Part shown: positions 3,173 to 64,000 of the stretch, in pieces
Position numbering within the stretch: the first letter of the stretch is position 1
Layout: each line of letters starts with the position of its first letter
Assembly: GCA_024274785.1 (NCBI GenBank)
Contig: JAJSAM010000035.1
Location: 85,613-149,612, forward strand
Length of the DNA stretch: 64,000 bases
Reading direction: 5' to 3'
Source: Planctomycetota bacterium
GTDB taxonomy: Bacteria; Planctomycetota; JAJSAM01
Program-made: the position numbers and the translations under genes
Notes under the pieces: generated by a model
The model's database searches: none
Told to the model about the DNA's origin: nothing
Seen by the model: only the letters and a program-made list of their open reading frames with translations

Positions 3173-3340
3173 TTACCCCGCGAGGTCGTTTCTATCTCTC
3201 AGGCGCCGCCGGTCGAGGGGCTTCACCGGGATCAGGATCCGCCTCCCGGTCCTGGCAAGCAGGCCGAGGGCGGTGAGCGCGGCGGCGCCGGACAGCGTCA
3301 GGGCGGAGAGCAGGAAGCCGCGCCGGGTCGGGCCGTTCAT
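3173..3340 (-). CDS. Small ORF (55 aa) with twin-arginine-like N-terminus
   Basis: MNGPTRRGFLLSALTLSGAAALTALGLLA... Its ATG overlaps the TGA stop of the rSAM gene (ATGA at 3337-3340). Stop TAA at 3173-3175, 5 nt upstream of the Memo/AMMECR1 start. Short ORFs are common by chance in GC-rich DNA. Confidence 0.2.
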   Translation of the reverse strand: MNGPTRRGFLLSALTLSGAAALTALGLLARTGRRILIPVKPLDRRRLRDRNDLAG

Positions 3341-24278: not shown

Positions 24279-24492
24279 GACGGGCCAAGGTTACCATCCA
24301 GAGCCGGGGAACCGGCATCGCCCCCCGGGCGGGGCTCGCCCGGCCGACAAGCAACCCGACGCGCACTGTTACCTCTCGAGCAGGCAAAGCCACTCCCCTG
24401 AAGCAGGTGGAAACGGTGGCGGTCTCCTGCGAGACTGCTCTGTGGCTGAGCCGGATGGACTTGCGGAGGGAAGGGATGGGAGGATCCTGGAA

Positions 24493-48886: not shown

Positions 48887-48990
48887 ACAGCGCGGCCCTG
48901 CCGCGATGGAGGGTCGATCTCCGGGCGACCGTGCTGGCAGTCCGGGAACGTCACGCAGGTTCTGCGAGTGCCGCGAAGGTTTTGAACGTC
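48887..48990 (+). repeat. Dispersed intergenic repeat, copy C
   Basis: acagcgcggccctgccgcgATGGAGGGTCGAtCTCCGGGCGACCGTGCTGGCAGTCCGGgaaCGTCAcgcaggttctgcgagtgccgcgaaggttttgaacgtc: full-length match to copy A. Confidence 0.85.
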
Positions 48991-49031
48991 CATGGTACAG
49001 AGGCCAGCCGAGCCAGGGGAGCGGGAGCGAG

Positions 49032-50048
49032 TTGAGGACGAATTGCCCTGACACCGTATCGGTCATCCTGTGCATCGCCGCCATTCTGCTCGCGTCCTGC
49101 AACGGTCCCCCGATATCGGATTCTCCGGTGAGTCTCGACGGTGTCGCGACCTGGGCCATCCAGCTCCAGGGGCTCGACCGCGCCGGCGCTATCGACCGCC
49201 TGGCCCGGGCGGACGTCGACCTGGTGGTGATCGAATCGATGAACACCATGCGTGACCACGCTGACTTCCCCATCGTCCCCGTGGTCCGCCAGGTGAAGGC
49301 CACTCCGGGCGCCATGCTTCCGCGAAAGCTCTGCCTGGCCTATCTGAACGTCGGGCAGGCCGAGGACTACCGGGAGTACTGGGGCGAAGACTGGGTTTCA
49401 CCACGCTCCGATGCGCCGGGGTCTCCCGCGTTCCTGCTCGCCGCGGACCCGGATGGGTGGGCCGGCAACTGGCCGGTGGCGTACTGGGACCGGAGGTGGC
49501 GGGCGATTCTCTTCGGTTCCCCGGAGGCGCTCCTCGAACGCGCGATCGAGCAAGGTTTCGACGGGGTGATGCTCGACTGGGTGGCGGGTTGGTCGCGCCC
49601 GCTCGTCTCCGCCGCCGCCCGAGAGGCCGGAGTCGATCCGGCGGCGGCGATGGCCGACCTGATTCGCGAACTCGGCCGCCGCGCGCGGACCCTGCGGCCG
49701 GGCTTCCTGCTGCTCCTGAACGACGGCGCCCCCCTGCTCGAGCGCATCCCGTCCCTTTCGGAGTGCGTGGACGGAGTCGTACGGGAATCGGTCTGGTTCA
49801 CCGGCCGGTCATCGGACCGTTGGGATGACCCCGCCAACGCGGATGTCCGAGTCGCGGACCCGGAACCCGTGATCCGAAGCCTGGCCCACGCGCGGCGTCT
49901 CGGCGTGCGGGTCTTCACTCTCGACTATGCATCCCGACCTTCACGGCGCGAGGAAGCGGTCCGGCGCGCTCATCGAAACGGCTTCGTGCCCTTCGTCAGC
50001 CGCACTCCCCTGGACCGCCTGCCAAAGTACGGGGCCGCGCAAGAATAA
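49032..50048 (+). CDS. GH114-like (endo-alpha-1,4-polygalactosaminidase / TM1410-family TIM-barrel) lipoprotein
   Basis: Lipobox (VILCIAAILLASC). WAIQLQGLD...DLVVIE...CLAYLNVGQAEDYREYW...GFDGVMLDW matches the GH114/TM1410 pattern (the PelA hydrolase-domain family). TTG start 49032 inferred. Convergent with pelG. Confidence 0.55.
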   Translation: MRTNCPDTVSVILCIAAILLASCNGPPISDSPVSLDGVATWAIQLQGLDRAGAIDRLARADVDLVVIESMNTMRDHADFPIVPVVRQVKATPGAMLPRKLCLAYLNVGQAEDYREYWGEDWVSPRSDAPGSPAFLLAADPDGWAGNWPVAYWDRRWRAILFGSPEALLERAIEQGFDGVMLDWVAGWSRPLVSAAAREAGVDPAAAMADLIRELGRRARTLRPGFLLLLNDGAPLLERIPSLSECVDGVVRESVWFTGRSSDRWDDPANADVRVADPEPVIRSLAHARRLGVRVFTLDYASRPSRREEAVRRAHRNGFVPFVSRTPLDRLPKYGAAQE

Positions 50049-50195
50049 CCTCGCCCCTCCGGAGGGAATTCCGGCACTCAGCCCGAGTTGGCTCGATACC
50101 CCTCTTCACCGCAGCGACCCGCCAGGACACCACACATCCTCTGATGGTTTCCACGGTTACGGAAACGCGGCGTGCGCCCTCACGAGAAAGGCGGG

Positions 50196-51572
50196 CTAGT
50201 CCGAGGTGATGGGCTGTCCGGTGAACACGTAGTAGTCGAGGTGCCGGGTAGCTCGAGCCAACAGTACGTATCCGGTGATCAGCGAGAGCATGGCGGCAAT
50301 TGCATAGCCGAAACCGTAGGTCGCCGGACCGAGCCACACACTCGCCAGGGCCAGGCCGCCGTTCAGGACCAGGAAGAGGAGTGACGTGGTGAACGCCTGC
50401 CAGCGCAGGTCGAAGTATAGCTGCATCAGAATGGTGATGAGCAGCATCACGTGGCAGAAAGCACCGATACAGACCGCACGAAAGACCCTCACCGCCGTCG
50501 GGGGCAAACCCAGCTTCTCCAGCAGAACGGGAGCGAAGATCAGGGCCAGGGCCGTGATGGCTCCCTGGATGCGCAGGAGCCGGATCATGCCCTCCTTCAG
50601 GTTGCCGAGCATGGCCATCCGCTTCTGTTCGATGATCGCGAGCGGACGTCCGCCGAGGATCGCACCGAAGTACGATCGATAGCAATCGTAGAAGCCGGTC
50701 TCCACCCGCACCAGGTTCACTGCCAGAGCGGGGATGACCGTCAGGTAGGCGAGGAAGCAGCAGGTGTCGTAGAGCGGATGGTAGAGGATCAACGGGTGCG
50801 GGCCGATGCCGTCCGCCACCCAGAAGATGATCTTGTCGATCCAGATCCCGGCGTTGTAGGCCACCCCCACGACCAGCAGGCGCGGAAACTCGGAAACGCT
50901 CGCCAGAACCGCGAAATCGCGGTCTCCTTCGGTGTGGAGGCCCCGGACGATGGCTCGCACCAGGTAGACCAGGGCCAACCCCTGTCCGGCGGTGTAGGCG
51001 GCCATCAGGCCGAGGGTGCCACAGGGTCTCTCGAGGGCGGCGACCAGGCCGAAGACCAGGAGAGCGCCCAGGCCGTAGCCTTTCAGCACCGTGTCGAACT
51101 CCCGCGTCACACCGAGCCAGATCAGTGCCAGCCAGGTGATCCCGAGCACCATGAACAGCGTCACCGCGACGAGAGAGAGGGCCGCCGGAAGACCGGCCGC
51201 GATGCAGAAGATGCTCCCCACCACGAGGTGCGCGACTCCGACGACGAGAAAGCACGCATTGAAGGCCGGGAGGATCTCCCGGTACTGTTTGGTGTAGAGC
51301 CAGTCCGCGACCTTGCGCGTCACCGTGAGTTGCAGCACGCCGACCAGGATCAGGCTGAACGCGAAGGCGTAGGTCACCATGGCCCGGAAGAGATCGTAGG
51401 CCGGGGCGGTGGTCAGGTACGGCGCGAATCCGCTCAGAATCCCCAGCGTGAAGATGGTCACGAGCCAGGGACCTGAGGAGATCAGTCCGGCGCAGGCGTA
51501 CCCGCGGACCCGCGAGATCAGTCCTCGCCGCGTATCGATCATCCGCCGGAGTTCGAACCCGATGCCGGCCAT
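50196..51572 (-). CDS. pelG: Pel polysaccharide exporter PelG (MATE-like, 12 TM)
   Basis: 458 aa. N-terminus MAGIGFELRRMI matches the PelG signature start. Polytopic membrane protein. Confidence 0.85.
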   Translation of the reverse strand: MAGIGFELRRMIDTRRGLISRVRGYACAGLISSGPWLVTIFTLGILSGFAPYLTTAPAYDLFRAMVTYAFAFSLILVGVLQLTVTRKVADWLYTKQYREILPAFNACFLVVGVAHLVVGSIFCIAAGLPAALSLVAVTLFMVLGITWLALIWLGVTREFDTVLKGYGLGALLVFGLVAALERPCGTLGLMAAYTAGQGLALVYLVRAIVRGLHTEGDRDFAVLASVSEFPRLLVVGVAYNAGIWIDKIIFWVADGIGPHPLILYHPLYDTCCFLAYLTVIPALAVNLVRVETGFYDCYRSYFGAILGGRPLAIIEQKRMAMLGNLKEGMIRLLRIQGAITALALIFAPVLLEKLGLPPTAVRVFRAVCIGAFCHVMLLITILMQLYFDLRWQAFTTSLLFLVLNGGLALASVWLGPATYGFGYAIAAMLSLITGYVLLARATRHLDYYVFTGQPITSD

Positions 51573-51573
51573 G

Positions 51574-53079
51574 TCAGACTCCCACTCCGGTGGACGTCAG
51601 GTGTTTGGTGTAGATCTCCCGATAGGCGCCGATCATGTCCTCCTGGTCGTAGAAGCGATTCACGCGCTTCATCAGATTGCGGCCGAGCTGCTTGCGGCGC
51701 TCCGGATCCCGGTAGAGCTTCAAGAGCGCCTCCGCCGTCGCCCCCGGACTCGCGATCGGAGTGATGAGCCCGCCTCCGCCGATCATCTTGTCCTCGGGCA
51801 GGCGTCCGAAGAGCAGCTCGGAGCAGGAGCCCACATCGGTCGCGACATTCGCCAGACCCATGGCCCCCGCTTCGAGGATCACCAGCGGCTGGGCCTCCGA
51901 GATGCTGGTCAACACCACCACATCGACCTTCGGCACTTCCTCGAGGACGTTGACGGCTCCCTCGAGGATCACGTTGTCGTCGAGATCGAGCAGGGAGATC
52001 AGCTCGTGGCATTCCCGGGCATAATCGGGATCCTCATCCGCGGGCCCCATGACCCGCACCAGGACGTCCGGGACCTCCTCCGCCACGAGGCGGCTGGCGT
52101 AGATCAGGGTCTTGACGTCCTTGATGGGACAGACGCGGCCCACGAAACCGATGGTGTATCGATCATTCTCCGGCCGGCCGAAGTACGCTTTGGAAGCCTC
52201 TCCGAATCGTTTCAGGTCGATGCCGTTCGGCACGACATGCACCTTCTGGCGGTCGGCGCCGTCCCTCACCTGCATCTCCCGGTTCCCCTCGTAGAGGGTG
52301 AAGATCTCATCCGCCAGCTAGTAGCAGACCCCGGCCATCATCTGGAACTGGCGGACCCAGAACCGCTTGAAGTAGGGAGCGGTGCGCTCCGCGACGAGTT
52401 CCCCCGATTCCCAGTCCTCGATCCAATCCGCGCGGTTGATCTCGATGCGCCGTTCCTTGGTGTAGATCCCGTGCTCGGTCAGCAGCATCGGCCTCTGATG
52501 ACGGACCTTGCACGCCGCGGCGAGGATTCCGGCGTAGCCCGTGGAGATGGTGTGGTAGAGACCCGCCGCGGGCGCATTTGCGGCCAGCACGTTGAAGAGC
52601 GGCATATTCGAGTAGCGCCAGGTCCAGAAGAAGTTCAGGAAGCTCTCCTCCTCCGCCTCCGCCCGGTACGTATCCACCAGCACTTCCCAGCTCTCCCGGG
52701 TCTGGAGGAGGTCGTAGGAGTTCATCCCCGCGCCGCCGTCCTCCTCGAGCGATCGGATGAAGTCGGCGAACGCTCCGATCCTGCCCGCGCACATGTCCTC
52801 GACCAGGTCCCGGAACCGATCCACCTTCTCCCGGTTGTCGCCCTCTCCCCGATTCTCGGACATCGTGTACTCGTGCAGGCAGACCTCCTCCAACCCCACG
52901 ACGTTCTTCGGCATTTCGTAGGCCGGCCCCTTCGGGTAGTACCCGCGCTTGGGGCTGACGTGCATGATCGTGAAGGTGAGCTCCGGCAGTTGCCGGATGA
53001 TCTGGTGCACCCAGGAGGAAACTCCTCCCTTCACGAACGGATAGGTGCCCTCCAGGAGCAGGCAGATATCGGGGGTCAT
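51574..53079 (-). CDS. pelF: Pel glycosyltransferase PelF (GT4), interrupted by an in-frame TAG at 52318-52320 (possible pseudogene)
   Basis: N-terminal part (52318..53079) and GT4 C-terminal part (51574..52275, ...FVGRVCPIKDV...EAQPLVILEAGAMG) are in the same frame. Reading through gives ...FQMMAGVCY*LADEIFTLYEGNREMQVRD... continuous with PelF. Confidence 0.8.
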
Positions 53080-54188
53080 GGTCTCGCTCCCGCGGGCACG
53101 CCGTCTCCGGCCCGCTCTGTTTCTTCCGTCACCTCGTCCCCGTCCCCGTCTTCACCTTCATCCTCGCCCGTGTCCCGCAACGCCTCGAGCCAGCCGGGCA
53201 GCTCGACCCCCCGCTCGGCGAGTTGTTCCGCCTCCTCGCGGGCGTGTGCGAAGTCCCGATCGACAAAGGCGATCTCGGCCGTGGTCAGGTGGATCTCCGT
53301 CATCGTCCGGATCTCCTCCGGGAGAGAGAGGAGACAGTCGTAGGCCTTCGCGAACTCGCCGATCTTCGCGTGTGACCTGGCTTCGAGCGTGGCGCCCTCG
53401 ACGCTCTCCGGGTCAATCTTCCTCGCGTCACCGGCGGAACCGGCCGCCGCCCTCAGGTGGAATCCGGCCGTCGCCTGATCCAGGACGCCGCTGCTGGCCA
53501 GATCGAAATGGGCCCCGGCCAGCTCGAGATGGGAATCCGCGTCTCCCGGGGCTTCCCGCACCCGTACCCGTCCTCCGGCCACCCGGTCCTCGTGTTCTCG
53601 CACCAGCCGCTCCAGCTCGCCGTAGGCATACAGGCGCACTTCCTGGTCATCATCCTCGAGGCAGTTTCGAATCAGCATCAGGTGGTGCGGTTGCCCCAGC
53701 TCCGCCAAACGGACCAGGGCGCTCCGCTTCTGGTCGGTGCCGCCGTGCCGCAGCACATCCCGGTAACTCTCCAGGTCCAGCTTGCGGGCGAGATCCCGAT
53801 CGAAGTTCCCGGTGAACAGACTCCGCTCGTACTCCGGAATCCTGGGCTTGACATGGTTCTTGTAACGCTCCATGGCCTGGTGGGAGTTCTCCACTCCTTC
53901 CCCCCGGCCCTTGCGGGGCAGTCCAACCGACAAGGCCGGGCCCATGAAGGGCAGGAGCACCGCGATGAGCATCATGGCGTCGCGTTCCGCCGGAGCCAGC
54001 GGTTCGCCACGACGGTGGCGGGCCGCGAAAGTCGCGGGCAGGACGGCCGTGAAATGGCAGAGGAGCCCCCCCATGAACGCGAGGAAACCCGTGCCGAAGA
54101 ACATGAAGCGTGCCCCGGCCGCACCAAGGGCCATGGACAGAAGCGTCAGAGCGATGACGATCAGCCCTCTCCTCGACAATCTCTTCAT
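53076..54188 (-). CDS. pelE: Pel biosynthesis inner-membrane TPR protein PelE
   Basis: 370 aa. Two N-terminal TM segments then TPR-like helical region. Positioned between pelD and pelF. Confidence 0.7.
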   Translation of the reverse strand: MKRLSRRGLIVIALTLLSMALGAAGARFMFFGTGFLAFMGGLLCHFTAVLPATFAARHRRGEPLAPAERDAMMLIAVLLPFMGPALSVGLPRKGRGEGVENSHQAMERYKNHVKPRIPEYERSLFTGNFDRDLARKLDLESYRDVLRHGGTDQKRSALVRLAELGQPHHLMLIRNCLEDDDQEVRLYAYGELERLVREHEDRVAGGRVRVREAPGDADSHLELAGAHFDLASSGVLDQATAGFHLRAAAGSAGDARKIDPESVEGATLEARSHAKIGEFAKAYDCLLSLPEEIRTMTEIHLTTAEIAFVDRDFAHAREEAEQLAERGVELPGWLEALRDTGEDEGEDGDGDEVTEETERAGDGVPAGARP

Positions 54189-56098
54189 CGATAGCCTCCC
54201 GCCACCGGGATGTCCCGCAGCGGCCGAATGTCGGAAAGTGCGTCGATAAACGGCACGTAGTAGGGGAAGTCGGGACCGAAGCTCAGGATCTCGGTCGCCA
54301 ACGGGCCATAGGGCGGATCCGCCTCCGCTTCACCGACCAGGGCCAGCAGACGTTCGGAGATCTCTGTTCCCTGTTCCGGATCGGTCTTGGGGAGAACGGC
54401 CACCACGTGCCCCTCTCCCAGGGCGAAGAGGCTGTCGGTCTGTCGCAGCCCACCCTCCGTCGCCTGCCGGATGTGGAATGCCAGAAGTCCCGGCTCGACT
54501 CCGACGGTCTCTTCGCTCCGGATGGAGATCACCTGCAAGGGGTATTCGTTTCGCATCGCGAGGCCGATCTCCCCGATCAGAGTTCGGAGGAACTCCCGGA
54601 TCGTGCCGATGTGGCGGCCCGCCGGAAGCTCGAAGGCCCGGCCGGGGCCGCAGACGCCTTCGCCGCCCGCAAACAGTCCGGTCATCTGCTCCACCAGGCT
54701 GTCCGGGTCCGGCGTTCCGGGGGCCGGCTCGAAAACGTCGACCTCGATCTCCCCCGGGACCTCCCACTCCTCCCGCTGTTCGGGCACCAGGCGTCGCCGC
54801 AGGGCCTGAGCCCCGTCGGCCGGCGTACCGGGCAGGACCATCAGGTAGCAGCCGGCCTGGGGGAAGCGATAGAGAGCGTCGGAGGCGCGCGTGCGCGTGG
54901 CGAAGCGGTCCACCATGAACTCGTCCACCTCCGCCATGCGCGGAGCGGGGAGGCCGACGGTCCCCCGGATGCGGATCGCGAGGAAGGACAACGGCAACCC
55001 ATGGCGGACCGTTCGGTCGTATTCCAACCCGAGACGCACGCCCAGATCCCCGGCGCTGCCGATCCACTTCGGAGAGGGTTCGAGGTGCGAGAACTCATCG
55101 CTTCCACCCGAGACCGGCGCCCCGTCCTGGTAGGACCGCGTGAGCAGCGCGGAAGTCCACCTGGCAATCGCCTTGAAGGTGCGGATCGTGGATCCGTTGA
55201 GGACCGAAGCCGGAACATCATCCAGACAGAGCAGTGCATCGATGACACCCGGAGCGCCGGTCAGGGGAGTCACGACGAGGGGCCCATTCTCGGGCGGTTC
55301 CTCGGCGGACGAGAATCCGTTGATCTCACGTCCCTCGCGGATCGCGCGTTGTACGTATTCGCTTTCTCGCGAAACCTCGAGCCGGGCCTCCGTCTCCCCG
55401 GCGGGCCAGCCCCGCTGGCACAGAAGCTCGAGCTGTCCATCCAGCCGGGGCATCAGGACCGAGGCGGACGCGCCGCAGTACTCCTCCACCAGTTCGAGGG
55501 CGATCTCACGGATCTCCGCGGGCGAGGCCAGCTCGGTCCGGCTGGCGGTCTCGATCAGGTTGCCGAAGTGACTGTTCTGATCCACGAGCCGGCGCTCCAG
55601 GACCCGGCCGGCCGCGGAGAGCACATCCCGCTGCTGCCGGACCCGTTCGTATTCGGTGCCGGCCTTGGCCAGTTCATCGGTGAGCACTGAAAGCCGATCC
55701 CGCGCGATGTCCCTGAACTCCCCGATCAGGAAGCTCACCGCAAAGAACAGGATCGGCTCCAGCATGATCTTGAAAGTCAGGAGCTCGCGAAGATCCTCGA
55801 TGCCTGATTCCCGCTGCGCGCCGAAAACGACAAGCAGAGTGGCGCAGGCCGCGGCGGTGAGGCCGGCGGTGAGACCCCGACCCGCGGCCATGGGCAGGAT
55901 CACCAGCCAGTAGGGGTGGGGATGCACGCCGAAGGCGCCGATGCGGCCGTCTCCGGTGAAGAACTCGATGAGAACGATCACTCCGTAGAGCGCGGCGACT
56001 TCGGCAAGGACGAGGAACCACCCTCCCCGGCGGCTCATGGCCTCGGGCGGGCTTTCGTTCCCGGCGGTTCCCTGCTTGTCTTGCACCGAAGTTACCAT
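54185..56098 (-). CDS. pelD: Pel c-di-GMP receptor PelD-like (TM region, GAF and degenerate GGDEF-like domains)
   Basis: 637 aa (longer than P. aeruginosa PelD). 4 N-terminal TM segments, coiled coil, then cytosolic domains. Operon context. Confidence 0.65.
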   Translation of the reverse strand: MVTSVQDKQGTAGNESPPEAMSRRGGWFLVLAEVAALYGVIVLIEFFTGDGRIGAFGVHPHPYWLVILPMAAGRGLTAGLTAAACATLLVVFGAQRESGIEDLRELLTFKIMLEPILFFAVSFLIGEFRDIARDRLSVLTDELAKAGTEYERVRQQRDVLSAAGRVLERRLVDQNSHFGNLIETASRTELASPAEIREIALELVEEYCGASASVLMPRLDGQLELLCQRGWPAGETEARLEVSRESEYVQRAIREGREINGFSSAEEPPENGPLVVTPLTGAPGVIDALLCLDDVPASVLNGSTIRTFKAIARWTSALLTRSYQDGAPVSGGSDEFSHLEPSPKWIGSAGDLGVRLGLEYDRTVRHGLPLSFLAIRIRGTVGLPAPRMAEVDEFMVDRFATRTRASDALYRFPQAGCYLMVLPGTPADGAQALRRRLVPEQREEWEVPGEIEVDVFEPAPGTPDPDSLVEQMTGLFAGGEGVCGPGRAFELPAGRHIGTIREFLRTLIGEIGLAMRNEYPLQVISIRSEETVGVEPGLLAFHIRQATEGGLRQTDSLFALGEGHVVAVLPKTDPEQGTEISERLLALVGEAEADPPYGPLATEILSFGPDFPYYVPFIDALSDIRPLRDIPVAGGYR

Positions 56099-59000
56099 CT
56101 CAATGTGAATCTCAGCTCGAGGCTGGATGCTCCTTTCCCCACGTCCGCTCTTCCGAACGCATAGCCGTAGGTCCCACGGAATCCGACCTCGAAGTCGGGA
56201 CCGGGCCGCCAGGAGAGCCCCAGCAGGGCGCCGCCGAAGGGGCCGGGGTCGGCCAGGTCGGTGCCGAGATAGGTCTCCACCTCGACGACCAGCCCCGGAC
56301 CCAGGCTCTCCTCGAGGCGGCCGGTCGCGGTCACGTAGTGCGCCACATCCCGAATGGGCAGAGAGTCGGCGAGTTCCGCGCCGTCGAGGAGCGCCATGCC
56401 CGTGTATCCCAGCCAGGCGCCGATGCGGGGGCCTCGCGATTCGGGAGGCTCACCGGCGACCGTCGATCCGGCTCGCGCCGGCTCGGCTCGGCGGGCCAGG
56501 AGCCCTTCCTGCACCTGCGGCCCCTCGCCACGGAACCACGTACCGAAGGACCCCTCGAGGATGACCATGTCGTCGGAGAGCCGGCCATCCCGTGCCGTTT
56601 CGATGGAGAGGTTCGAGTATCGCAATCGGCCATAGGCCCACCAGTCGGCCTCCTTGCCCGACCGGTAGCCGGTGAGTTCAACTCCGCTGCTGCGTCCGGC
56701 CAGACCCGCCGCCGCCGCGGGATAGGCCAGGGTTTCCAGAACATGCAACCGCAGCTCGTATCGGGCGTACGGGTTCTGCTCCCGCTTCGACACCTCGATC
56801 CAGCCGCCCAGAGGATCGCCGCCCGGGCGGTCCGGATAGAAGTCCGTCCCCAGAGCCAGCTCCCAGTCTCGGCTGAGACGCCGGGACACCGACAGCCCGA
56901 GGCTGGTCAGTTCGGTGTCGAGAAGCTCGAGACCAGATCGGTAGGCCTGGGCCCGTCCCCGGTACGACCCACGCTCCAGGTAGCCGGAAACCCTCGTCTC
57001 CTCCACATCGAGGAGGAGAGAGCCCGAAAGGAGCATCCGGGTGATCCGGTCATCCGCCGCGGTCTCCGTACGGACCAGGAGATTCGCCACCGGAGACGCA
57101 AGCTGGTCGCAAAGGACCCTGCGGGTCTCCCGTGCGGTTCGGTTTTCGGGTTGGAGCGAGAGCAACTCGTCGAATGCGTCCCGCGCCCGGGCCAGGCGCC
57201 CCAGGCCCAGGAACGCTTCGGCACTGGACGCGGCATAGCCGGGATCCTCGCCGTAGAGTTCGATGGCCCGTTCGATGCCGGCGAGGGCTTCTTCATAACG
57301 CCCCTCGAGAATCTTCAACTGCGCGTCCATCCGCAGGGCGCGGGGACTCTCCGCTCCGAGCAACCGGGCCTGTTCCACGACCCGCCTCGCCGCCTCCCCG
57401 CGGTTGAGAATCACCAGGGCGTCGGCGTAGTCGAGCAGCAGATCCTGGTTTCCGGGAACGAGCGCGAGCAGGCGGTCGAAGATCGCCCGGGATTCTTCCT
57501 CCCGACCGAAACGAGCCAGGATCCTGGCCTCCATGGAGCTTCGCGGAACGCTGGCGAAGCCGGCCTCCCGCAACAACACCAGAGCCTGCTCATGCACGGT
57601 CCGGCCCAGATCCTCCTGCCGGCAGGACCAGTAGGCCTCGCCGAGGTAGAAGAGAAGTTCTCCCTCACCGTCCCCTCCCACCGCCAGGGCCCGCTCGAAG
57701 CTGACGATGGCGCCATAGGGGTCGTTGCTCCAGGAGGCGATCTGTCCGATCCTGGTCCAGGATTTCGCCTCTTCGGGATTCTACTCGGCCAGGGACTCGT
57801 AGAGCACCAGCGACAGATCCAGCCAACCTGCCGCGAAGAACCGGTCCGCGAGCCAGGGGACCCAGTCGTTCTTCACATCCGGCCCTTCGAATTCTCCGAG
57901 CGCGACCGGCGCGGGCCTCTCGTAAAGGGCGGGGAAACGCTGCATGAGATCCGCAGCGATCGCTTCGTAGCCCGGATAGCGGTCCATTCCCGCGACCACC
58001 GCCAGGATCTCCGCCGCCTCCTTCGCATCCAGTTCGGGAGATTTCGAGAGCAGGGTGGCCTTGTCGAGGAGCCCTTCGATTCCGGCGCCGGCGTATCCCT
58101 TCAGGCCGCGGAAGAAGAGCAGCGGGTCTTTCGCCCGTTCGACCCTCCTGACCATCAGGGTTCGCACCTGGTCGATTCGCCCGAGAGAGATGCAGAGGGC
58201 CATCGCCTCGGCTTCCAGCTCCGGATCCGGATCCGTTTGCAGCCGCAGGAGCAGGATTTCCGCCAGTTCATCCTGCCGGTTCGCCCGTTTGAGCAGGTCG
58301 TACCGGCGATCGTCGTAGCCGCCCTCCGGCCAGCGCTTCGCGAGATTTTTCAGTTCGGCCAGCGCCGCGTCCACCTGCAGATCCTGGAGGTAGAACTCCA
58401 CGAGCCGTTCGCGCCAGGGACGTGGGTCGTCGGCGACGGTGGAGGCTTCCTCGAAGAGCTCGGCGGCCCGTTCGAGATCCCCTCCCGACAGCGCCAGGTC
58501 CGCCGCCTCTCCGAGACCAGTGGCGTCCCCGGCGGCGCGGGCCAGCTCCGCGACGTGCAGCGACGCTTCGTCGGGCCGACCGAGGTAGCGATACAGTTCG
58601 ATCAGGCGCCGGCGCACCGTGAGCGGCTCTTCCTCGTCCTCGAGCACCCCCTCCAGAGCCTCCAGCTCCTCTTCGTACCGTGACAGCCACGCGGCGATCT
58701 CGGCCCGGCGCTTCTGCACGGTGATGTCGCCGGCGCCGGCCCGGGCGGCGGCGGAGAGCACCAGCAGCGCCCCCTCGCGGAGGCCGGCATCGAGACAACC
58801 CTCCGAGAGGGCGAGAGCGCTCTCGGACGAGGTCGGATCGGCTTCGAAAGCACGGAGCAGCCATCGCATCCGGGCTCGCGGCCGGTAGGCCAGGCGGAAG
58901 TGCTCGGCCAGGATCAGACCGTCTTCGGGATCCACGGCCCCGGCCTGGCCGCCCGCCGAAACCATCGCCACCGCCGCCAGGCGATCAGGAGCGCAATCGG

Positions 59001-59565
59001 CCCCGCAGAGCGCTCCGAGATCGACCACCTTCCGGCTCTTCCCTCCCAGGTGCAGGAAGAACGCCTCCAACTCCCTTGCCCCTCGTTCGTTCATCTCGAT
59101 GGTGCGCAACAGGCGAACCGCCTCGTGTGGCCCCATCGTCCCGCCCCGGTCGTCGGCGAGGGTGGCGAGGGCGCTTCGGCGTGCGACCAGTGCGGGGATG
59201 GTCGCACCGATCAACTCCAGCCTCTTTGCGGCTTCCGCCGGTGAGTAGAGCTCCTCTTCCAGGAGGAAGGCCACGCGGGCCAGGTTCGCCGGATCGCGCA
59301 CCTGCACCTGTTTCGCCCGGAGCAGATCGAGCGCCAGTCTCGCATCTCCGAGATTCCGAGCCTGCTCGATCAGGAATCTGCTCGCCATCGACGGATCCGT
59401 CGCACTCCCCTCCGACGACGGCTCGCTCGGAATGAAGGGTTCGGATCCCGCGGCGGGCAGCGAACTCAGGATCTGCCCGGGGGGCTCGTAGCAGACCGCG
59501 ATCAGGGTGAGCGCCGAACTGGCGATGAGCGTGAAGACGATGATGCCGCTCCAGGAAACCGTCAT
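56092..59565 (-). CDS. pelB: Pel outer-membrane export/scaffold protein PelB (N-terminal TPR array plus C-terminal beta-barrel), with an in-frame TAG at 57781-57783
   Basis: Two track ORFs (57781..59565 TPR part with signal/TM; 56092..57681 TPR plus C-terminal beta-barrel ending ...LELRFTLRW) share one frame. Read-through: ...LYESLAE*NPEEAKSWTRIGQIASWSNDPYGAIVSFERALAVGG... Confidence 0.8.
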
Positions 59566-61676
59566 GGCCGCCTCACTTCCACCCGGTTCGGTCCGGCCGG
59601 GGGCAGCTCGAGGCGAAACTCGCCGTTCTCATCGGCGGCGACTTCCTGCTGCACTGAATCGAGGCGGAGGATCAAGGGCCCGTCCGGTGGGAAGCCGGCA
59701 AAGACGATCAGTCGAGGGGCGAGGGAGGTGGAGGTCACCGCCACACCGGTCGCATCGCGCGAGGCTTTCGTGAGAACGTGGTTCGCCTCGAGGACATGCG
59801 GCGCCGGCGTGGCCTTTTTCACGAGCGTCACCTCCGCATCCGGCTTTGCCAGGTGAAGGTGAAGCGATCCCTGAAGGACGCGCGCGCCGAGGATCCCCGG
59901 GCTGCGGCTCCAGTCGATTTCTCCGGCGGGATCGTCGAGTCGAACGGTGCGGCAGTCGCCGAAATCGCGGAAGGCCCAACCGTTCGGGGTCCGGAGGATT
60001 CGGGCGGTGCCGAGGGCGGAACGAACCGATCGAATGTAGGTGGAAGCGAAGACCGGGGCGGTCGGCTCCGACTTGCCCCAGCGATCGAGCAGCCGCCGGA
60101 AGACCCGGATCCGCCCGCGTCGCTCCACGCTGAAGAGGTGGACGTAGACGTTTGCGGGTTTGAGGATCTTCCCGCGTCCGGTCCGCTCGATGGTGGTGTC
60201 CACGTGGCGGAACGAGAGAGGGTTCGTTGTGAAATAGCCATCGTAGACGACTTCGTTCGACGACCCGCAGTAGACCTGCACGTGTCCGTTGACGATCCGG
60301 CCCAGGGGCGGAACGTAGCTGACGGAGTCGTTCAGGGCATCCCACCGATAGATCCCACCGTTCAGATTCAGGAGTCCGAGCCGGTCGGCCTCGGCAATGG
60401 CGTCCACCTGGGGGCACGCATTGCCGCTCCAGAGCATGACCTCACACCGCTTGGTGGGAGGAAGCAGGTAGTCATTGATGAACCGGATGCTGTCCCGCAC
60501 TTCCCCGACCAGGGTCTTGTCGAAGTGCTTCGGACCAGGGAAGACGAAAGTCGCCGAACTCCGCTCCGGCGATTCGCCCACCATTCCCCAGTTCAGCGGG
60601 TGGCGGACCGAGTGGGAAGCGGCTTCGACCCGGGGATGACGGAGCAGGCGGGATGCCGCTTCGATCATCGGGGTGCGGACCGTCGGCTTCAGGTCGTCCG
60701 TGATGGAGTTGGCGATGATGCTGACGGTGAACGGGAGTTCGTACTTCTCTATGATCTCATCGAGGAACACCTCCCCGCAATTGGCGCCGCGCCGGATTGT
60801 GGACAGGCTTTCGAATCCGTCTCCGTCCACGTGGCAGAAGAACATCCGGCGCCCGTTGATGACGCAAGGTTGGGGCGCCGGTACTCCGGTGAGACCGAGT
60901 GCGGTTCGCAGGAAAGCGAACAGGTCGAGGTACAACCGTCGACCGCCTTCCCCGGCTCCCTCGCGATAGACGTAGGGAGCCAGGGCGATCCCCCCCCAGG
61001 GACCGGTCACGATGGGCGTACGTGCACGCCCCGGATCGGCCGAGCTCCGGGTGGAGATCCAGGCGGTGTTTGCGCCAGACTCGATCCAGGGCCCACGGTG
61101 GATGGAATGCCCGGTGGGATCGGCCTCGATGGCGCAGGGAAGTCGGTCTGAGAGAGTCACCTTCACGCCGAGTGGTATGTCGACGTAGGCAGGATCGAAA
61201 CCCAGACCGAAGGAGGCGAGCCAGCGGGCCAGTCGGCCCGTGTTCTCGCGACGGTTGACAAAACGGAGGGGACCCCATTCGCCGAAGTGCACGAAGCGGA
61301 TGCCGCCTTCACGGCGGCGGGCTTCGAGCCAGGGCCACAGCCACTCGACCGGATCATCAGTGTACTCGAATGCAGTGAGTACCGCTCTGAGGTCGGTGAG
61401 CAGGCGTGCGGGAGGAGGTCCATCGCGCACATCGTGGCGTAGGACGACCATACCCAGGTAGTTCAGCGGAAGCTCGTAGAGCTGGTGGACGGGATCCTCG
61501 ATGCCGAGGGATTGGCTGCCTGCGCCGCCGTCATAGAGGGCGAGCACGTGTCGTGCGACGGGCTCCTGACCTTCGCTCCCGGAGCCGGCCGGTGATCGGC
61601 CGACCAGCATTCCGAGAAGAGCGATTGTCAGCAGGAGCACCAGCCGCTTTGCAGCCGGGGTCCTTCCATCCACCAT
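59562..61676 (-). CDS. PelA-like secreted polysaccharide-modifying protein (putative deacetylase-type domain; lacks recognisable GH114 hydrolase domain)
   Basis: 704 aa, signal peptide. Central ...VINGRRMFFCHVDGDGFESL... segment resembling polysaccharide deacetylase/PelA-type folds. First gene of the pel operon (ATGA overlap with pelB). Domain assignment by eye only. Confidence 0.45.
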   Translation of the reverse strand: MVDGRTPAAKRLVLLLTIALLGMLVGRSPAGSGSEGQEPVARHVLALYDGGAGSQSLGIEDPVHQLYELPLNYLGMVVLRHDVRDGPPPARLLTDLRAVLTAFEYTDDPVEWLWPWLEARRREGGIRFVHFGEWGPLRFVNRRENTGRLARWLASFGLGFDPAYVDIPLGVKVTLSDRLPCAIEADPTGHSIHRGPWIESGANTAWISTRSSADPGRARTPIVTGPWGGIALAPYVYREGAGEGGRRLYLDLFAFLRTALGLTGVPAPQPCVINGRRMFFCHVDGDGFESLSTIRRGANCGEVFLDEIIEKYELPFTVSIIANSITDDLKPTVRTPMIEAASRLLRHPRVEAASHSVRHPLNWGMVGESPERSSATFVFPGPKHFDKTLVGEVRDSIRFINDYLLPPTKRCEVMLWSGNACPQVDAIAEADRLGLLNLNGGIYRWDALNDSVSYVPPLGRIVNGHVQVYCGSSNEVVYDGYFTTNPLSFRHVDTTIERTGRGKILKPANVYVHLFSVERRGRIRVFRRLLDRWGKSEPTAPVFASTYIRSVRSALGTARILRTPNGWAFRDFGDCRTVRLDDPAGEIDWSRSPGILGARVLQGSLHLHLAKPDAEVTLVKKATPAPHVLEANHVLTKASRDATGVAVTSTSLAPRLIVFAGFPPDGPLILRLDSVQQEVAADENGEFRLELPPAGPNRVEVRRP

Positions 61677-61761
61677 GTTTCAAAAATCGAACATTCCGGG
61701 CCTGGAACTTGACCCTAAACCGATTTCCTGAAGTGAAATGGGAGGCGCTCCCGGGAGGAAA

Positions 61762-63126
61762 CTACGCGTTTATGGATTTCGACAGGGCCTTCCGGGAATT
61801 GGCCACTCCGGCGAGGATCTCTCTCATGGCCACGGCCAACTTCAGACTGTCGTGTCGGACCAGCGAGGCTTCCGAAGCCACATCCGCCCGTACGATCCTG
61901 GCGCGTGTGAGTTCAGAGAGCCGCTCTCCCGCCCGCTCGATGACCGGAAACTGACCCCGCTTCGAGTAGTACCGCAGCGCATCCGCGGAGAAGTCCGTCA
62001 GCGAGGTGAGGATGAAGTCCAGGCAGTCTCCCCCCAGGTACCCGACCATCTCCCGCACGTGCTCGTAGACCGAGAATCCGCAGGTTTCGCCGGGTTCGGT
62101 CATCACGTTGCAGACGAAAACTTTCGCCGCCCTGCTCGACCGGATCGCCTCCGGGATGCCGCCGATGACCAGATTCGAGATCAAGCTGGTGAAGAGATCT
62201 CCGGGGCCGAGGACGATCAGTTCGGCATCGCCGAGCGCTCGAAGGGCGTCCTCATTCGCCACGGCCGGTGGAGCGCACCACAGGTGCTCGATGCGCCCGT
62301 CCCGATCTGCCGCCTCGTAAACGTCGATCCGGTTCTCACCCTCGATGGTTCTACCGTTTCCGAGACGCGCAAAGAGGGTCGTATCGGTGTCGGTCACGGG
62401 AATGACTTCCCCCTGGATGCTCAGGATCTCTCCGAGCGCTCCGACCGCCGCCGCCATGGACCCGCGCATTTCGGAGAGGGCGGTGAGAATCAGGTTCCCG
62501 AGGTTGTGGCCCTCGAGCTCCTCGCCGCGGACGAACCGGTATTGCATGAGCTGGTTCAGGAGGTGGGGCGCACCGGAAAGTGCGATCAGGCTGCGGCGCA
62601 CGTCGCCGGGCGGGAGAATGCCGAACCGATCCCGCAATCGACCGGTGGAACCTCCATCGTCACTCATGCTTACGATCGAGGAAAGATGCAGCCCGGGTAT
62701 GGTCTTCAGCCCCGAGAGGAGGGTGAAGAGACCCGTACCGCCGCCGAGGCACACCACCCGCGTCGGCTTCTTCAGGACCCGCACCATCTTTTCGACCAGG
62801 ACGCGTGGCTGAACCGGAACGGGCAGCACATCGACATTTCTGAGCTCCGCGGCCTCCATCTGGGTGCGCTGGCGATCTGAATGGGTGAGAACGATCGCCG
62901 GAGGCATCTCGACGGAACGCAGTCCGAAGATTCGTTGCAGAAGGTCCGGCGCGGTCGTGGGGGGAAGGTCGAAGTCGATGAGCACGAGATCGAACGGTCC
63001 CTGCATCAGGAGGTGGAAGGCGGTCAATCCGTCTTCCGCAACCGCGAAAGAAAACCCGAAACGGCTCGTGGACTCCCGGATCAGCGATCGGAGGGCCGCA
63101 TCGGCGGTGCCGAGGAGAATCTTCAT
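61762..63126 (-). CDS. Response-regulator receiver domain fused to YvcK/GlmR (UPF0052, CofD-like) gluconeogenesis-factor domain
   Basis: REC-like N-terminus (DLVLIDFDLP). YvcK signature (VVCLGGGTGLFTLLSGLK...IVSMSDDGGSTGRLR). ATGA overlap with the upstream kinase gene. Confidence 0.8.
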   Translation of the reverse strand: MKILLGTADAALRSLIRESTSRFGFSFAVAEDGLTAFHLLMQGPFDLVLIDFDLPPTTAPDLLQRIFGLRSVEMPPAIVLTHSDRQRTQMEAAELRNVDVLPVPVQPRVLVEKMVRVLKKPTRVVCLGGGTGLFTLLSGLKTIPGLHLSSIVSMSDDGGSTGRLRDRFGILPPGDVRRSLIALSGAPHLLNQLMQYRFVRGEELEGHNLGNLILTALSEMRGSMAAAVGALGEILSIQGEVIPVTDTDTTLFARLGNGRTIEGENRIDVYEAADRDGRIEHLWCAPPAVANEDALRALGDAELIVLGPGDLFTSLISNLVIGGIPEAIRSSRAAKVFVCNVMTEPGETCGFSVYEHVREMVGYLGGDCLDFILTSLTDFSADALRYYSKRGQFPVIERAGERLSELTRARIVRADVASEASLVRHDSLKLAVAMREILAGVANSRKALSKSINA

Positions 63127-63986
63127 TCGAACGACTCGTCCGGAAGCGATGCGAGGTCGTCCAGCAGTTCCCGGGCGTCCCGATGCCGCCCGCTCGGTTT
63201 CTTGGCCAGAAGCCGCATGATGATCCCGTTGAGCTCCTCCCCGAGGGTCGGAACCAGTTCCATCGGCGGCACCGGAGACTCCGTCAGGTGCTTCACCAGG
63301 ATCTCCGCGGGAGTGGAGCCTTCGAACGGCCGCCGCCCGGTGAGCGCGAAGTAGAGCGTCACTCCGAGCGAGTACAGGTCCGCCCGCTCATCGACCACTC
63401 CACCCGAGATCTGCTCCGGGGGGATGTAGAAGGGCGTGCCGGCGATTTCGGAGCGGCCGCTGGACTGCCGGGCTTCGCTCAATTGGAGCGCCAGGCCGAA
63501 GTCGGCGACCTTCACGCGGTTTCGGGAGTCGAGCAGCAGGTTCGAGGGCTTGATGTCACGGTGCACGATGCCGGCGTCATGAGCCTCAGCGAGCGCCGCG
63601 GCCGTCTCGATGGTGATCCGCACCGCTTCTCGTGCGTCGATTTGCCCCTCCCGCTCGATCAGATCCCCCACCGTCTCTCCCTCGACGTACTGCATGACGA
63701 GGTAGTAGAGCCCCCGCTCCTGGCCCACGTCGTGGACCGCCACCACACCGGGATGTTCCAGACAGGCCGCGGAACGGGCTTCCCGAAAGAACTGTTCCAC
63801 GTGCCGGCGCAGGTAGAAGAGCGCCGGATTCAGGATCTTGACCGCAACATCCTTTTGCAGGGCCAGGTGGCGGGCCAGGAAAACGGACCCCACCGCTCCC
63901 CTGCCCAGGCGCGCATCCATCAGGCATCCCGCCAACGTGCTCCCCAGAATCCCCCGCTCGAAGTTGAGCGTCTGCTCCGGTGTCAT
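63123..63986 (-). CDS. Hanks-type Ser/Thr protein kinase (kinase domain only, 287 aa)
   Basis: GRGAVGSVFLARH...VAVK (G-loop/VAIK), HRDIKPSNLLL, DFGLA, GTPFYIPPE motifs. Start ATG at 63984-63986 near window end. Confidence 0.8.
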   Translation of the reverse strand: MTPEQTLNFERGILGSTLAGCLMDARLGRGAVGSVFLARHLALQKDVAVKILNPALFYLRRHVEQFFREARSAACLEHPGVVAVHDVGQERGLYYLVMQYVEGETVGDLIEREGQIDAREAVRITIETAAALAEAHDAGIVHRDIKPSNLLLDSRNRVKVADFGLALQLSEARQSSGRSEIAGTPFYIPPEQISGGVVDERADLYSLGVTLYFALTGRRPFEGSTPAEILVKHLTESPVPPMELVPTLGEELNGIIMRLLAKKPSGRHRDARELLDDLASLPDESFE

Positions 63987-64000
63987 GCAGGGAGGGGGCA

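What the first reader, a model, noticed from the sequence alone, without database searches (positions are those of the whole stretch)
61762..63986. Hanks kinase and REC-YvcK(GlmR-like) fusion directly upstream of the pel operon
The kinase stop overlaps the start of a protein fusing a response-regulator receiver domain to a YvcK/UPF0052 domain. In Bacillus subtilis YvcK binds UDP-sugars and is a substrate of the Hanks kinase PrkC. The fusion gene ends 86 bp before the first pel gene. Pel is a GalNAc/GlcNAc-rich polymer made from UDP-HexNAc. This suggests a phosphorylation-controlled UDP-sugar-sensing module regulating Pel production, an arrangement I do not know to be described.
Basis: partly seen in the sequence, partly recalled or inferred. 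Interest (0 to 1): 0.6.

Follow-up and report, generated by a model that had tools for sequence, protein, structure and literature searches.

The report
Kinase plus receiver-YvcK heading a pel operon
An uncultured high-GC bacterium encodes a serine/threonine kinase coupled to a UDP-GlcNAc-handling GlmR/YvcK protein with a degenerate receiver domain, placed directly before its Pel biofilm-polysaccharide genes, which suggests phosphorylation-controlled sugar-precursor supply for Pel, an arrangement I could not find described.

Summary
On the minus strand a Hanks-type kinase (Pkinase 1.7e-50) ends in an ATGA overlap with a 454-aa protein. That protein has an N-terminal CheY-fold domain and a YvcK/GlmR domain (TIGR01826, 303 bits). 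A real pel operon (pelA-like, B, D-like, E-like, F, G) starts 85 bp downstream.

Corrections:
- The window cuts the kinase; the full protein is 379 aa, with an acidic disordered N-terminus and no sensor domain.
- The receiver keeps the acceptor Asp (D51) and T81 but lacks the acidic metal-binding pair and the conserved Lys, so it is a pseudo-receiver.
- The receiver-YvcK fusion is common in Omnitrophota and relatives, not unique.

The YvcK domain keeps every residue shown to matter in Bacillus/Listeria GlmR, with Ser427 at the PrkC phosphosite position.

Kinase→receiver-YvcK→pelA synteny, including the 4-bp overlap, recurs on six other contigs (57-71% identity) that form one clade. Independently, four Omnitrophota genomes place a receiver-YvcK as the last pel gene. 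One of these sits next to a PelX-like epimerase, and two are followed by a histidine kinase.

Best reading: a kinase-gated GlmR module that tunes UDP-HexNAc supply for Pel. This is a new variant of the known PASTA-kinase/GlmR pair; the mechanism is inferred, not shown. pelB and pelF each carry an in-frame TAG here.

The parts
63123..64000 (-). Hanks-type Ser/Thr kinase, cut by the window end. The catalytic domain is complete. The full protein is 379 aa, with a 92-aa acidic low-complexity N-terminus lying outside the window.
   Evidence: Pkinase scores 1.7e-50. The frame is open upstream of the ATG at 63986. The identical 379-aa protein is P0272. The GxGxxG, VAVK, HRD and DFG motifs are visible in the alignment.
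63123..63126 (-). ATGA overlap of the kinase stop and the receiver-YvcK start (translational coupling).
   Evidence: Read directly from the sequence. The same 4-bp overlap occurs in L001, L007, L008, L170, L171 and L172.
62770..63126 (-). Pseudo-receiver (CheY-fold) domain, residues 1-119. D51 and T81 are kept. The acidic pair is replaced by T7/A8 and the conserved Lys by V103.
   Evidence: Response_reg scores 36.5 bits against a cut-off of 30.2. PDB CheY/CpxR hits reach about 1e-8. The AF2 model shows a (beta-alpha)5 fold. Foldseek TM is about 0.85.
61762..62766 (-). YvcK/GlmR domain (residues 121-454) plus the TAG stop. D156/D157/N318, Y387/R424 and S427 are conserved.
   Evidence: TIGR01826 scores 303 bits. 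2hzb matches at 1.8e-60 with TM 0.91. The residues' roles come from PMC13046274 and PMC10128056.
61677..61761 (-). 85-bp gap between receiver-YvcK and pelA. It holds the conserved motif GTTTAGGGTCAAGT-N13-TTTCGATTT (about 61684-61721) just 5' of the pelA ATG.
   Evidence: The motif is seen in an alignment of four loci and is unique in the window. There is no Rfam match. The only terminator-like hairpin is no better than chance.
59562..61676 (-). PelA-like protein with the deacetylase and C-terminal domains only; it has no hydrolase domain.
   Evidence: PDB 9cgy PelA matches at 4.8e-57, query 215-667 against chain 414-865.
56092..59565 (-). PelB-like TPR/porin gene interrupted by an in-frame TAG at 57781-57783.
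   Evidence: TPR hits. It is a single 1158-aa gene in L001. The in-frame TAG has conserved flanks.
54185..56098 (-). PelD-like membrane protein (weak GAF match), assigned mainly by its position in the operon.
   Evidence: GAF_3 scores 4e-4, below the cut-off. The L001 orthologue has a weak GGDEF_2 hit. There is no PDB match.
53076..54188 (-). PelE-like protein, assigned by position.
   Evidence: Conserved position; the L001 orthologue has weak TPR/HEAT hits.
51574..53079 (-). PelF glycosyltransferase interrupted by an in-frame TAG at 52318-52320.
   Evidence: The two halves score NF038011 PelF at 3.5e-68 and 1.4e-69. The in-frame TAG is shown.
50196..51572 (-). PelG.
   Evidence: PF16933 scores 2.8e-118.
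48906..50048 (+). Separate GH114-type glycoside hydrolase, convergent with pelG. It is probably the hydrolase activity that PelA lacks here.
   Evidence: PF03537 scores 1.2e-17.

Best explanation
This is a two-gene signalling and metabolic module placed at the head of a Pel exopolysaccharide operon. The first gene encodes a soluble Hanks-type Ser/Thr kinase with no sensor domain. The second, translationally coupled to it, encodes a GlmR/YvcK-type protein with an N-terminal pseudo-receiver domain.

The YvcK domain is intact. By analogy with Bacillus and Listeria GlmR, it binds UDP-GlcNAc and either makes UDP-GlcNAc or boosts its synthesis. UDP-GlcNAc is the precursor of the UDP-GalNAc used for Pel.

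The most likely mechanism is that the kinase phosphorylates the receiver-YvcK protein. Candidate sites are S427, next to the UDP-GlcNAc-binding R424, and/or the receiver domain. Phosphorylation would loosen feedback inhibition by UDP-GlcNAc, so that precursor supply rises when Pel is made.

Shown: the domain identities, residue conservation, gene coupling, conserved synteny, and a recurrent YvcK-pel linkage. Inferred: that the kinase targets YvcK, the phosphosite, the direction of the effect, and the link to Pel output.
For: Domains and fold.

Functional residues kept.
- D156/D157/N318 correspond to Lm D40/D41/N198.
- Y387/R424 correspond to Bs Y265/R301.
- S427 corresponds to Bs T304.
- The numbering offset was checked three times through 2hzb.

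Kinase-YvcK coupling:
- The 4-bp overlap and the order kinase→receiver-YvcK→pelA are conserved on L001/L002, L007, L008, L170, L171 and L172, at 57-71% YvcK identity.
- These YvcKs form one clade.
- All four full-length kinase homologues at 60% identity or more lie on those same contigs. Identity then drops to 50% or less.

Independent YvcK-pel linkage: receiver-like YvcK follows pelG directly in L032, L063, L065 and L079.
- In L065 a PelX-like UDP-GlcNAc 4-epimerase lies between them (6wjb 5.4e-72).
- In L032 and L065 a histidine kinase follows YvcK.
- SDR epimerase genes follow YvcK in about ten further loci.

Precedent: PASTA kinases phosphorylate GlmR, and the T304E mimic weakens UDP-GlcNAc binding (PMC13046274).
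Against: - No experiment exists; all organisms are uncultured.
- S427 is invariant across the whole receiver-YvcK family, including the many members with no adjacent kinase. It may be conserved for ligand binding, not phosphorylation.
- In B. subtilis the T304 phosphomutants have only mild phenotypes.
- 76 of 80 species-level loci show no pel linkage and none has a Hanks kinase within 10 kb. The family's general role is therefore probably housekeeping envelope metabolism.
- A conserved promoter-like motif in the 85-bp gap suggests pel may be transcribed separately.
- In this genome pelB and pelF carry in-frame TAG codons, so Pel may not be made here.
- I could not see whether the genome has a second yvcK, a PP2C phosphatase, or glmS/glmU/pelX.
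Confidence: 0.45

Rival explanations
1. This is housekeeping GlmR. The receiver-YvcK is simply this lineage's only GlmR, serving peptidoglycan and envelope precursor control. Its kinase is the functional counterpart of PrkC, and the position next to pel has no dedicated meaning beyond loose clustering of envelope genes.
For: Most family members lie in non-pel contexts, some near mur ligase and mraY genes. The clade is sister to those 'housekeeping' Omnitrophota copies. A possible separate pel promoter motif lies in the gap.
Against: The adjacency persists across seven contigs at 57-83% identity, and pel linkage arose at least twice in different arrangements. A PelX-like epimerase sits between pelG and YvcK in L065.
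Confidence: 0.2
2. The kinase acts on the Pel machinery (for example PelD, PelF or PelB) or on a transcription factor. The receiver-YvcK is not its substrate; it is an adaptor or an independent enzyme.
For: The kinase has no sensor domain and sits in the operon. Hanks kinases commonly have several substrates (review PMC6213207). S427 conservation is not kinase-specific.
Against: The kinase-YvcK start/stop overlap is invariant, and kinase and YvcK clades co-occur 1:1. This points to a stoichiometric pair. The kinase/GlmR substrate relation is documented in three other phyla-level lineages.
Confidence: 0.15
3. This is a classical two-component output. The receiver domain is phosphorylated on D51 by an unlinked histidine kinase, and the Hanks kinase is a secondary or unrelated input.
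For: D51 and T81 are kept. In L032 and L065 a histidine kinase follows the pel-linked YvcK. Histidine kinase genes lie within 1.5 kb upstream in 21 of 166 loci.
Against: The metal-binding acidic pair is absent in nearly the whole family. The Lys is lost in 8 of 9 members of the kinase-linked clade. Several histidine-kinase-adjacent members lack even the acceptor Asp, and those kinases come with their own OmpR-type regulator.
Confidence: 0.1
4. The locus is decaying in this genome. The in-frame stops in pelB and pelF mean the pel operon is non-functional here, so the module has no present role in Pel in this organism.
For: Two in-frame TAG codons. TAG is a normal terminator elsewhere in the window.
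Against: The flanks on both sides of each TAG stay in frame and are highly conserved. No other damage is seen, and the kinase and YvcK are intact. Orthologous operons (L001, L008) are uninterrupted. The codons could be consensus errors or read-through sites.
Confidence: 0.1

Closest known systems
PrkC-GlmR (YvcK) of Bacillus subtilis, with the PrkA-GlmR (Listeria) and PknA/B-CuvA (Mycobacterium) pairs
   Same: A Hanks-type kinase is paired with a YvcK/GlmR protein. The catalytic Asp-Asp/Asn, the UDP-GlcNAc-binding Tyr/Arg and a hydroxyl residue at the T304 position are all conserved.
   Different: The kinase is soluble, with no PASTA or transmembrane part, and is translationally coupled to its presumed substrate. 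The YvcK carries an N-terminal pseudo-receiver domain. The context is a pel operon, not yvcJ-yvcK-whiA. The lineage is an uncultured high-GC relative of Omnitrophota/Planctomycetota.
Receiver-YvcK proteins of Candidatus Omnitrophota and relatives (annotated only as 'YvcK family protein')
   Same: They share the two-domain architecture at 45-57% identity, with the same degenerate receiver pocket.
   Different: Those genes are not next to a Hanks kinase (0 of 80 loci) and are rarely next to pel (4 of 80, at the 3' end of the operon). Most keep Lys/Arg at the CheY K109 position, which the kinase-linked clade has lost.
Canonical Pel regulation in Pseudomonas aeruginosa (c-di-GMP via PelD and FleQ) and the PelX precursor epimerase of P. 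protegens
   Same: The core pel gene set is the same. A dedicated precursor-supply gene inside a pel operon has a precedent in pelX (reference; PelX-like gene in L065).
   Different: No GlmR or Ser/Thr kinase is known in described pel operons. Here PelA lacks its hydrolase domain (a separate GH114 gene is present), no pelC was found, and PelD is about 180 aa longer.
Hanks-kinase phosphorylation of response-regulator receiver domains (for example PrkC-WalR, StkP-ComE)
   Same: A Ser/Thr kinase is genetically partnered with a protein carrying a receiver fold (papers found).
   Different: In those cases the receivers are canonical and also take Asp phosphorylation from a histidine kinase. Here the receiver is degenerate and fused to an enzyme domain rather than a DNA-binding domain.

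Membership tests
YvcK/GlmR subfamily of the CofD superfamily (TIGR01826, PF01933) | Profile match above the curated cut-off, and better than to true CofD | tested here: met
   TIGR01826 scores 303 bits against a cut-off of 196. TIGR01819 (CofD) scores 25 bits against 257. PF01933 scores 2.4e-81.
YvcK/GlmR subfamily of the CofD superfamily (TIGR01826, PF01933) | YvcK fold | tested here: met
   The AF2 model matches 2hzb/2o2z/2ppv at TM 0.87-0.91 and E about 1e-29.
YvcK/GlmR subfamily of the CofD superfamily (TIGR01826, PF01933) | Catalytic Asp-Asp and Asn (Lm D40, D41, N198; Bs D38, D39) | tested here: met
   D156, D157 and N318 are invariant or nearly invariant.
YvcK/GlmR subfamily of the CofD superfamily (TIGR01826, PF01933) | UDP-GlcNAc-binding Tyr and Arg (Bs Y265, R301) | tested here: met
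   Y387 and R424 are invariant in 31 sequences. Positions were mapped through 2hzb numbering.
YvcK/GlmR subfamily of the CofD superfamily (TIGR01826, PF01933) | Thr/Ser at the PrkC phosphosite (Bs T304) | tested here: met
   S427 lies three residues after R424 and is invariant. The B. subtilis sequence itself was not available; the position was inferred from a consistent +1 offset to 2hzb.
YvcK/GlmR subfamily of the CofD superfamily (TIGR01826, PF01933) | yvcJ(rapZ)-yvcK-whiA operon context | tested here: not met
   The neighbours are a kinase and pelA. No such genes appeared among the window proteins scanned.
YvcK/GlmR subfamily of the CofD superfamily (TIGR01826, PF01933) | UDP-GlcNAc binding, uridyltransferase or GlmS-stimulating activity | not testable with these tools
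   This needs biochemistry.
Response-regulator receiver domain (PF00072) | Profile match above the gathering score, and a (beta-alpha)5 fold | tested here: met
   The score is 36.5 bits against 30.2. The AF2 secondary structure fits. Foldseek TM is about 0.85 to RR468/CheY4. The domain alone hits 5402 proteins at E<=1e-3.
Response-regulator receiver domain (PF00072) | Phospho-acceptor Asp (CheY D57) and Thr/Ser (T87) | tested here: met
   D51 and T81 are present.
Response-regulator receiver domain (PF00072) | Metal-binding acidic pair (CheY D12, D13) | tested here: not met
   The pair is T7/A8 here, and T plus A/T in all 9 clade members. It is absent in nearly all of the family.
Response-regulator receiver domain (PF00072) | Conserved Lys (CheY K109) | tested here: not met
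   The residue is V103 here. It is lost in 8 of 9 clade members, against K/R in 86 of 105 other family members.
Hanks-type (eukaryotic-like) Ser/Thr kinase | Kinase domain with the catalytic motifs (Gly loop, VAxK, HRD, DFG) | tested here: met
   PF00069 scores 1.7e-50. The motifs are invariant in the alignment.
PASTA kinase (PrkC/PknB/Stk1 type) | Transmembrane segment and extracellular PASTA repeats | tested here: not met
   NF033483 matches only profile positions 12-268 of 563, at 297 bits against a cut-off of 450. The full 379-aa protein ends with the kinase domain.
Pel polysaccharide operon | PelF glycosyltransferase and PelG | tested here: met
   NF038011 matches in two halves. PF16933 scores 2.8e-118.
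Pel polysaccharide operon | PelA with deacetylase and hydrolase domains | tested here: inconclusive
   The deacetylase and C-terminal part matches 9cgy at 4.8e-57. The hydrolase part is missing from this protein, but a separate GH114 gene is present.
Pel polysaccharide operon | PelB, PelC, PelD and PelE | tested here: inconclusive
   There is a PelB-like TPR protein, split by a TAG codon. PelD-like and PelE-like are assigned by position and weak GAF/TPR hits. No pelC was found between pelB and pelD.

The most novel reading that the evidence does not exclude
In one uncultured lineage a Hanks-type Ser/Thr kinase has taken the place that a histidine kinase holds in related operons, as the dedicated partner of a receiver-domain-bearing GlmR. 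The pair would form a phosphorylation-gated checkpoint that allocates UDP-HexNAc to the Pel matrix polysaccharide rather than to the cell wall, possibly even making UDP-GalNAc directly. This would be the first direct link between the GlmR precursor checkpoint and biofilm matrix synthesis.
Probability: 0.25. Interest if true: 0.7.

Novelty: new variant of a known kind. Interest (0 to 1): 0.5.

Why it matters
GlmR/YvcK is known as a checkpoint for UDP-GlcNAc supply to the cell wall in Gram-positive bacteria, and it is phosphorylated by PASTA kinases. How bacteria share UDP-GlcNAc between wall synthesis and HexNAc-rich matrix polymers such as Pel is an open question. A 2026 preprint on P. aeruginosa explicitly asks whether a GlmR-like UDP-GlcNAc effector exists there.

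A GlmR homologue physically built into pel operons, in two independent arrangements and each with its own kinase, gives a concrete and testable candidate for that link. It also offers a natural example of a receiver domain re-partnered from a histidine kinase to a Ser/Thr kinase. The proteins are soluble and could be tested in vitro even though the organisms are uncultured.

Tried and rejected
Look-ups that gave nothing:
- An exact look-up of the window's own protein found no record.
- The metagenome scan added no new kinase-linked locus beyond a duplicate of L002.
- An Rfam scan of 49000-64000 found nothing.
- The one terminator-like hairpin in the gap is no better than chance, and the gap RNA does not fold better than shuffles. 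Co-transcription is therefore undecided.
- A PDB sequence search did not confirm PelD.
- Literature searches for YvcK or CofD in pel operons, or for a receiver-YvcK fusion, found nothing relevant.

Ideas considered and dropped:
- That adjacent histidine kinases are the general partners of receiver-YvcK. I dropped this because several kinase-adjacent members lack the acceptor Asp, and those kinases have their own OmpR-type regulator.
- That TAG is reassigned genome-wide, which would explain the in-frame TAGs in pelB and pelF. I dropped this because TAG terminates at least 11 other genes in the window.
- Clade-specific conserved Ser/Thr residues as phosphosite hints (T7, T161, S218, T377). These were not decisive.

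Full report
**What is there.** All genes of interest lie on the minus strand.
- The ORF 63123..63986 is a Hanks-type protein kinase: PF00069 at 1.7e-50, with the best NCBIfam match confined to the catalytic half of the PASTA-kinase model.
- The ORF 61762..63126 (454 aa) has an N-terminal Response_reg match of 36.5 bits (gathering score 30.2) and a CofD/UPF0052 match of 2.4e-81.
- NCBIfam places this second domain in the YvcK subfamily: TIGR01826 at 303 bits (cut-off 196), against 25 bits for genuine CofD.
- The kinase stop and the next start overlap as ATGA at 63123-63126.
- An AlphaFold2 model built on 31 homologues (mean pLDDT 84.5) shows a five-stranded beta-alpha receiver fold for residues 1-118, followed by the YvcK fold.
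- Foldseek matches YvcK structures at TM 0.91 and receiver domains at TM about 0.85.

**The pel operon is real.** It begins 85 bp downstream of the fusion gene.
- A PelA homologue matches PDB 9cgy at 4.8e-57, but only the deacetylase and C-terminal part.
- A PelB-like TPR protein follows, then PelD-like and PelE-like proteins assigned by position and weak domain hits.
- PelF matches NF038011 and PelG matches PF16933 at 2.8e-118.

**Corrections to the observation.**
- The kinase frame is open to the end of the window. The identical protein on the 163-kb source contig is 379 aa. The missing 92 residues are acidic, low-complexity and not conserved among orthologues, which also lack any membrane or sensor domain.
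- The receiver is degenerate. Aligned to CheY, the acceptor Asp (D51) and T81 are kept. The metal-binding pair D12/D13 is T7/A8, and K109 is V103.
- The fusion is not rare. More than 100 of the 120 best homologues have the same two-domain architecture, and most come from Candidatus Omnitrophota MAGs. Planctomycetia and Myxococcota members also exist.
- Across the family the acidic pair is almost always missing, so this is a family of pseudo-receiver-YvcK proteins.

**State of the YvcK domain.** Published work names the residues that matter:
- D38/D39 (Bs), or D40/D41/N198 (Lm), for uridyltransferase activity.
- Y265 and R301 for UDP-GlcNAc binding.
- T304 for PrkC phosphorylation; the T304E mimic weakens UDP-GlcNAc binding (PMC13046274 and PMC10128056).

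I mapped positions through the 2hzb alignment. The offset to B. subtilis numbering is +1 at three independent landmarks. The window protein has D156/D157, N318, Y387, R424 and S427 at these positions, and all are invariant or nearly so in the family. The domain is therefore a complete GlmR-type protein with a Ser at the phosphosite position. S427 is conserved whether or not a kinase is adjacent, so it does not by itself show kinase targeting.

**Is the synteny conserved?** Yes, within one clade.
- The order kinase→receiver-YvcK→pelA-like, with the same 4-bp overlap, is found on L001/L002 (71% YvcK identity), L007 (60%), L008 (57%), L170 (58%), and the short contigs L171 and L172.
- All of these contigs are 66-72% GC.
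- These YvcKs are monophyletic and sister to the main Omnitrophota group.
- All four full-length kinase homologues with 60% identity or more lie on exactly these contigs. The next relatives, at 50% or less, are mostly named as Planctomycetota kinases. Kinase and receiver-YvcK thus behave as a 1:1 pair.
- In this clade the K109-equivalent is lost in 8 of 9 members, against K/R in 86 of 105 other members.
- Outside the clade, none of 80 species-level loci has a Hanks kinase within 10 kb.

**A second, independent link to pel.** In four Omnitrophota genomes (L032, L063, L065, L079) a receiver-like YvcK directly follows pelG as the last gene of the operon. These four are scattered in the tree.
- L032 reads PelB, a small receiver protein, PelD, PelE, a HEAT-repeat protein, PelF, PelG and receiver-YvcK. 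A CHASE-PAS histidine kinase and another receiver then follow.
- L065 reads PelG, an SDR epimerase, receiver-YvcK and a histidine kinase.
- The best solved relatives of that epimerase are 6wjb/6wj9 (5.4e-72), followed by the UDP-GlcNAc 4-epimerases WbgU and WbpP. I recall 6wjb/6wj9 as PelX, but the PDB file names them only generically.
- Epimerase-family genes also follow YvcK in about ten other loci.

This context points to nucleotide-sugar supply as the role of YvcK in these operons. It also shows that pel-linked receiver-YvcK tends to come with a kinase of some kind.

**Most likely mechanism.** Pel is built from UDP-GalNAc, which derives from UDP-GlcNAc. This rests on established knowledge; the PelX reference was seen.
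- I propose that the module tunes UDP-HexNAc supply for Pel.
- The GlmR domain would provide or stimulate UDP-GlcNAc synthesis and be feedback-inhibited by UDP-GlcNAc.
- The coupled kinase would phosphorylate it, at S427 and/or on the receiver domain, to relieve that inhibition.
- The pseudo-receiver may act as the docking or dimerisation surface.
- All of these steps are inferred.

**Rivals.**
- The gene is a housekeeping GlmR whose position next to pel has no dedicated meaning.
- The kinase acts on Pel proteins rather than on YvcK.
- D51 is phosphorylated by an unlinked histidine kinase.
- The operon is decaying in this genome.

**Caveats specific to this window.**
- pelB and pelF each contain one in-frame TAG (57781-57783 and 52318-52320). 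The flanks are perfectly conserved and in frame; the orthologue has Ala and Glu at those positions.
- TAG terminates many other genes here, so it is not reassigned genome-wide. Nonsense mutation, consensus error and read-through could not be separated.
- A conserved motif, GTTTAGGGTCAAGT-N13-TTTCGATTT, lies just upstream of the pelA ATG in four loci and is unique in the window. It may be a pel promoter or operator, which would make the kinase/YvcK pair a separate transcription unit.

**Comparison with what is known, and novelty.**
- The closest system is the PASTA-kinase/GlmR pair of Firmicutes and Actinobacteria. This locus shares the kinase-GlmR relation and all functional residues.
- It differs in four ways: a sensor-less soluble kinase, translational coupling, a fused pseudo-receiver, and a pel context.
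- Searches of the held literature found no description of YvcK or CofD genes in pel operons, or of a receiver-YvcK fusion. Databases label these proteins only 'YvcK family'.
- I rate it a new variant of a known kind, of moderate interest. It gives a concrete candidate link between the UDP-GlcNAc checkpoint and biofilm matrix synthesis, a link that current work in P. aeruginosa is looking for. It rests on comparative genomics of uncultured organisms only.

Noticed in passing
window 57781-57783 and 52318-52320 (minus strand): pelB and pelF each have a single in-frame TAG codon, with conserved in-frame sequence on both sides. The L001 orthologue has Ala and Glu at those positions. TAG is a normal stop for at least 11 other genes in the window, so this is not genome-wide recoding. 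Nonsense mutation, assembly error and read-through were not separated.
   Followed up: partly
window about 61684-61721 (minus strand), in the gap before pelA: The conserved motif GTTTAGGGTCAAGT-N13-TTTCGATTT lies immediately 5' of the pelA start codon. It is shared by L001, L007 and L008 despite 53-58% protein identity. It is unique in the window and has no Rfam match. It may be a promoter or operator.
   Followed up: partly
window 48906-50048 (+) and 59562-61676 (-): PelA here lacks its N-terminal glycoside hydrolase domain. A separate GH114-type hydrolase gene lies convergent to pelG, which suggests a split PelA.
   Followed up: partly
window 54185-56098 and 56092-57681 (minus strand): No pelC was found: pelB and the pelD-like gene overlap. 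The PelD-like protein is about 637 aa, conserved at 632-642 aa in orthologues and much longer than the roughly 455-aa P. aeruginosa PelD as I recall it. It has only a weak GAF match and no PDB match.
   Followed up: no
L032 863-14176; L065 3-4568; L079 144-10134: Omnitrophota pel operons carry extra genes: a small single-domain receiver before pelD, a 670-aa HEAT-repeat protein before pelF, and a receiver-like YvcK after pelG. YvcK is followed by a histidine kinase in L032 and L065, and preceded by a PelX-like epimerase in L065.
   Followed up: partly
L048, L049, L069, L073-L076, L078, L080, L081: An SDR nucleotide-sugar epimerase/dehydratase gene lies directly downstream of receiver-YvcK on the same strand in about ten loci of one subclade.
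   Followed up: no
L003, L005, L015, L016, L020, L022 and others: In the main Omnitrophota clade an OmpR-type regulator plus HAMP histidine kinase pair lies 0.2-1.5 kb upstream of receiver-YvcK on the same strand, in 21 of 166 loci. Several of those YvcK receivers lack the acceptor Asp.
   Followed up: partly
window 23842-29676 (+): This is a very large (1944-aa) protein that combines a DEAD/Helicase_C module with a UvrD-type helicase module.
   Followed up: no
window 1621-3168 (-) and 3337-4311 (-): A Memo-AMMECR1 fusion protein lies next to a radical SAM enzyme.
   Followed up: no
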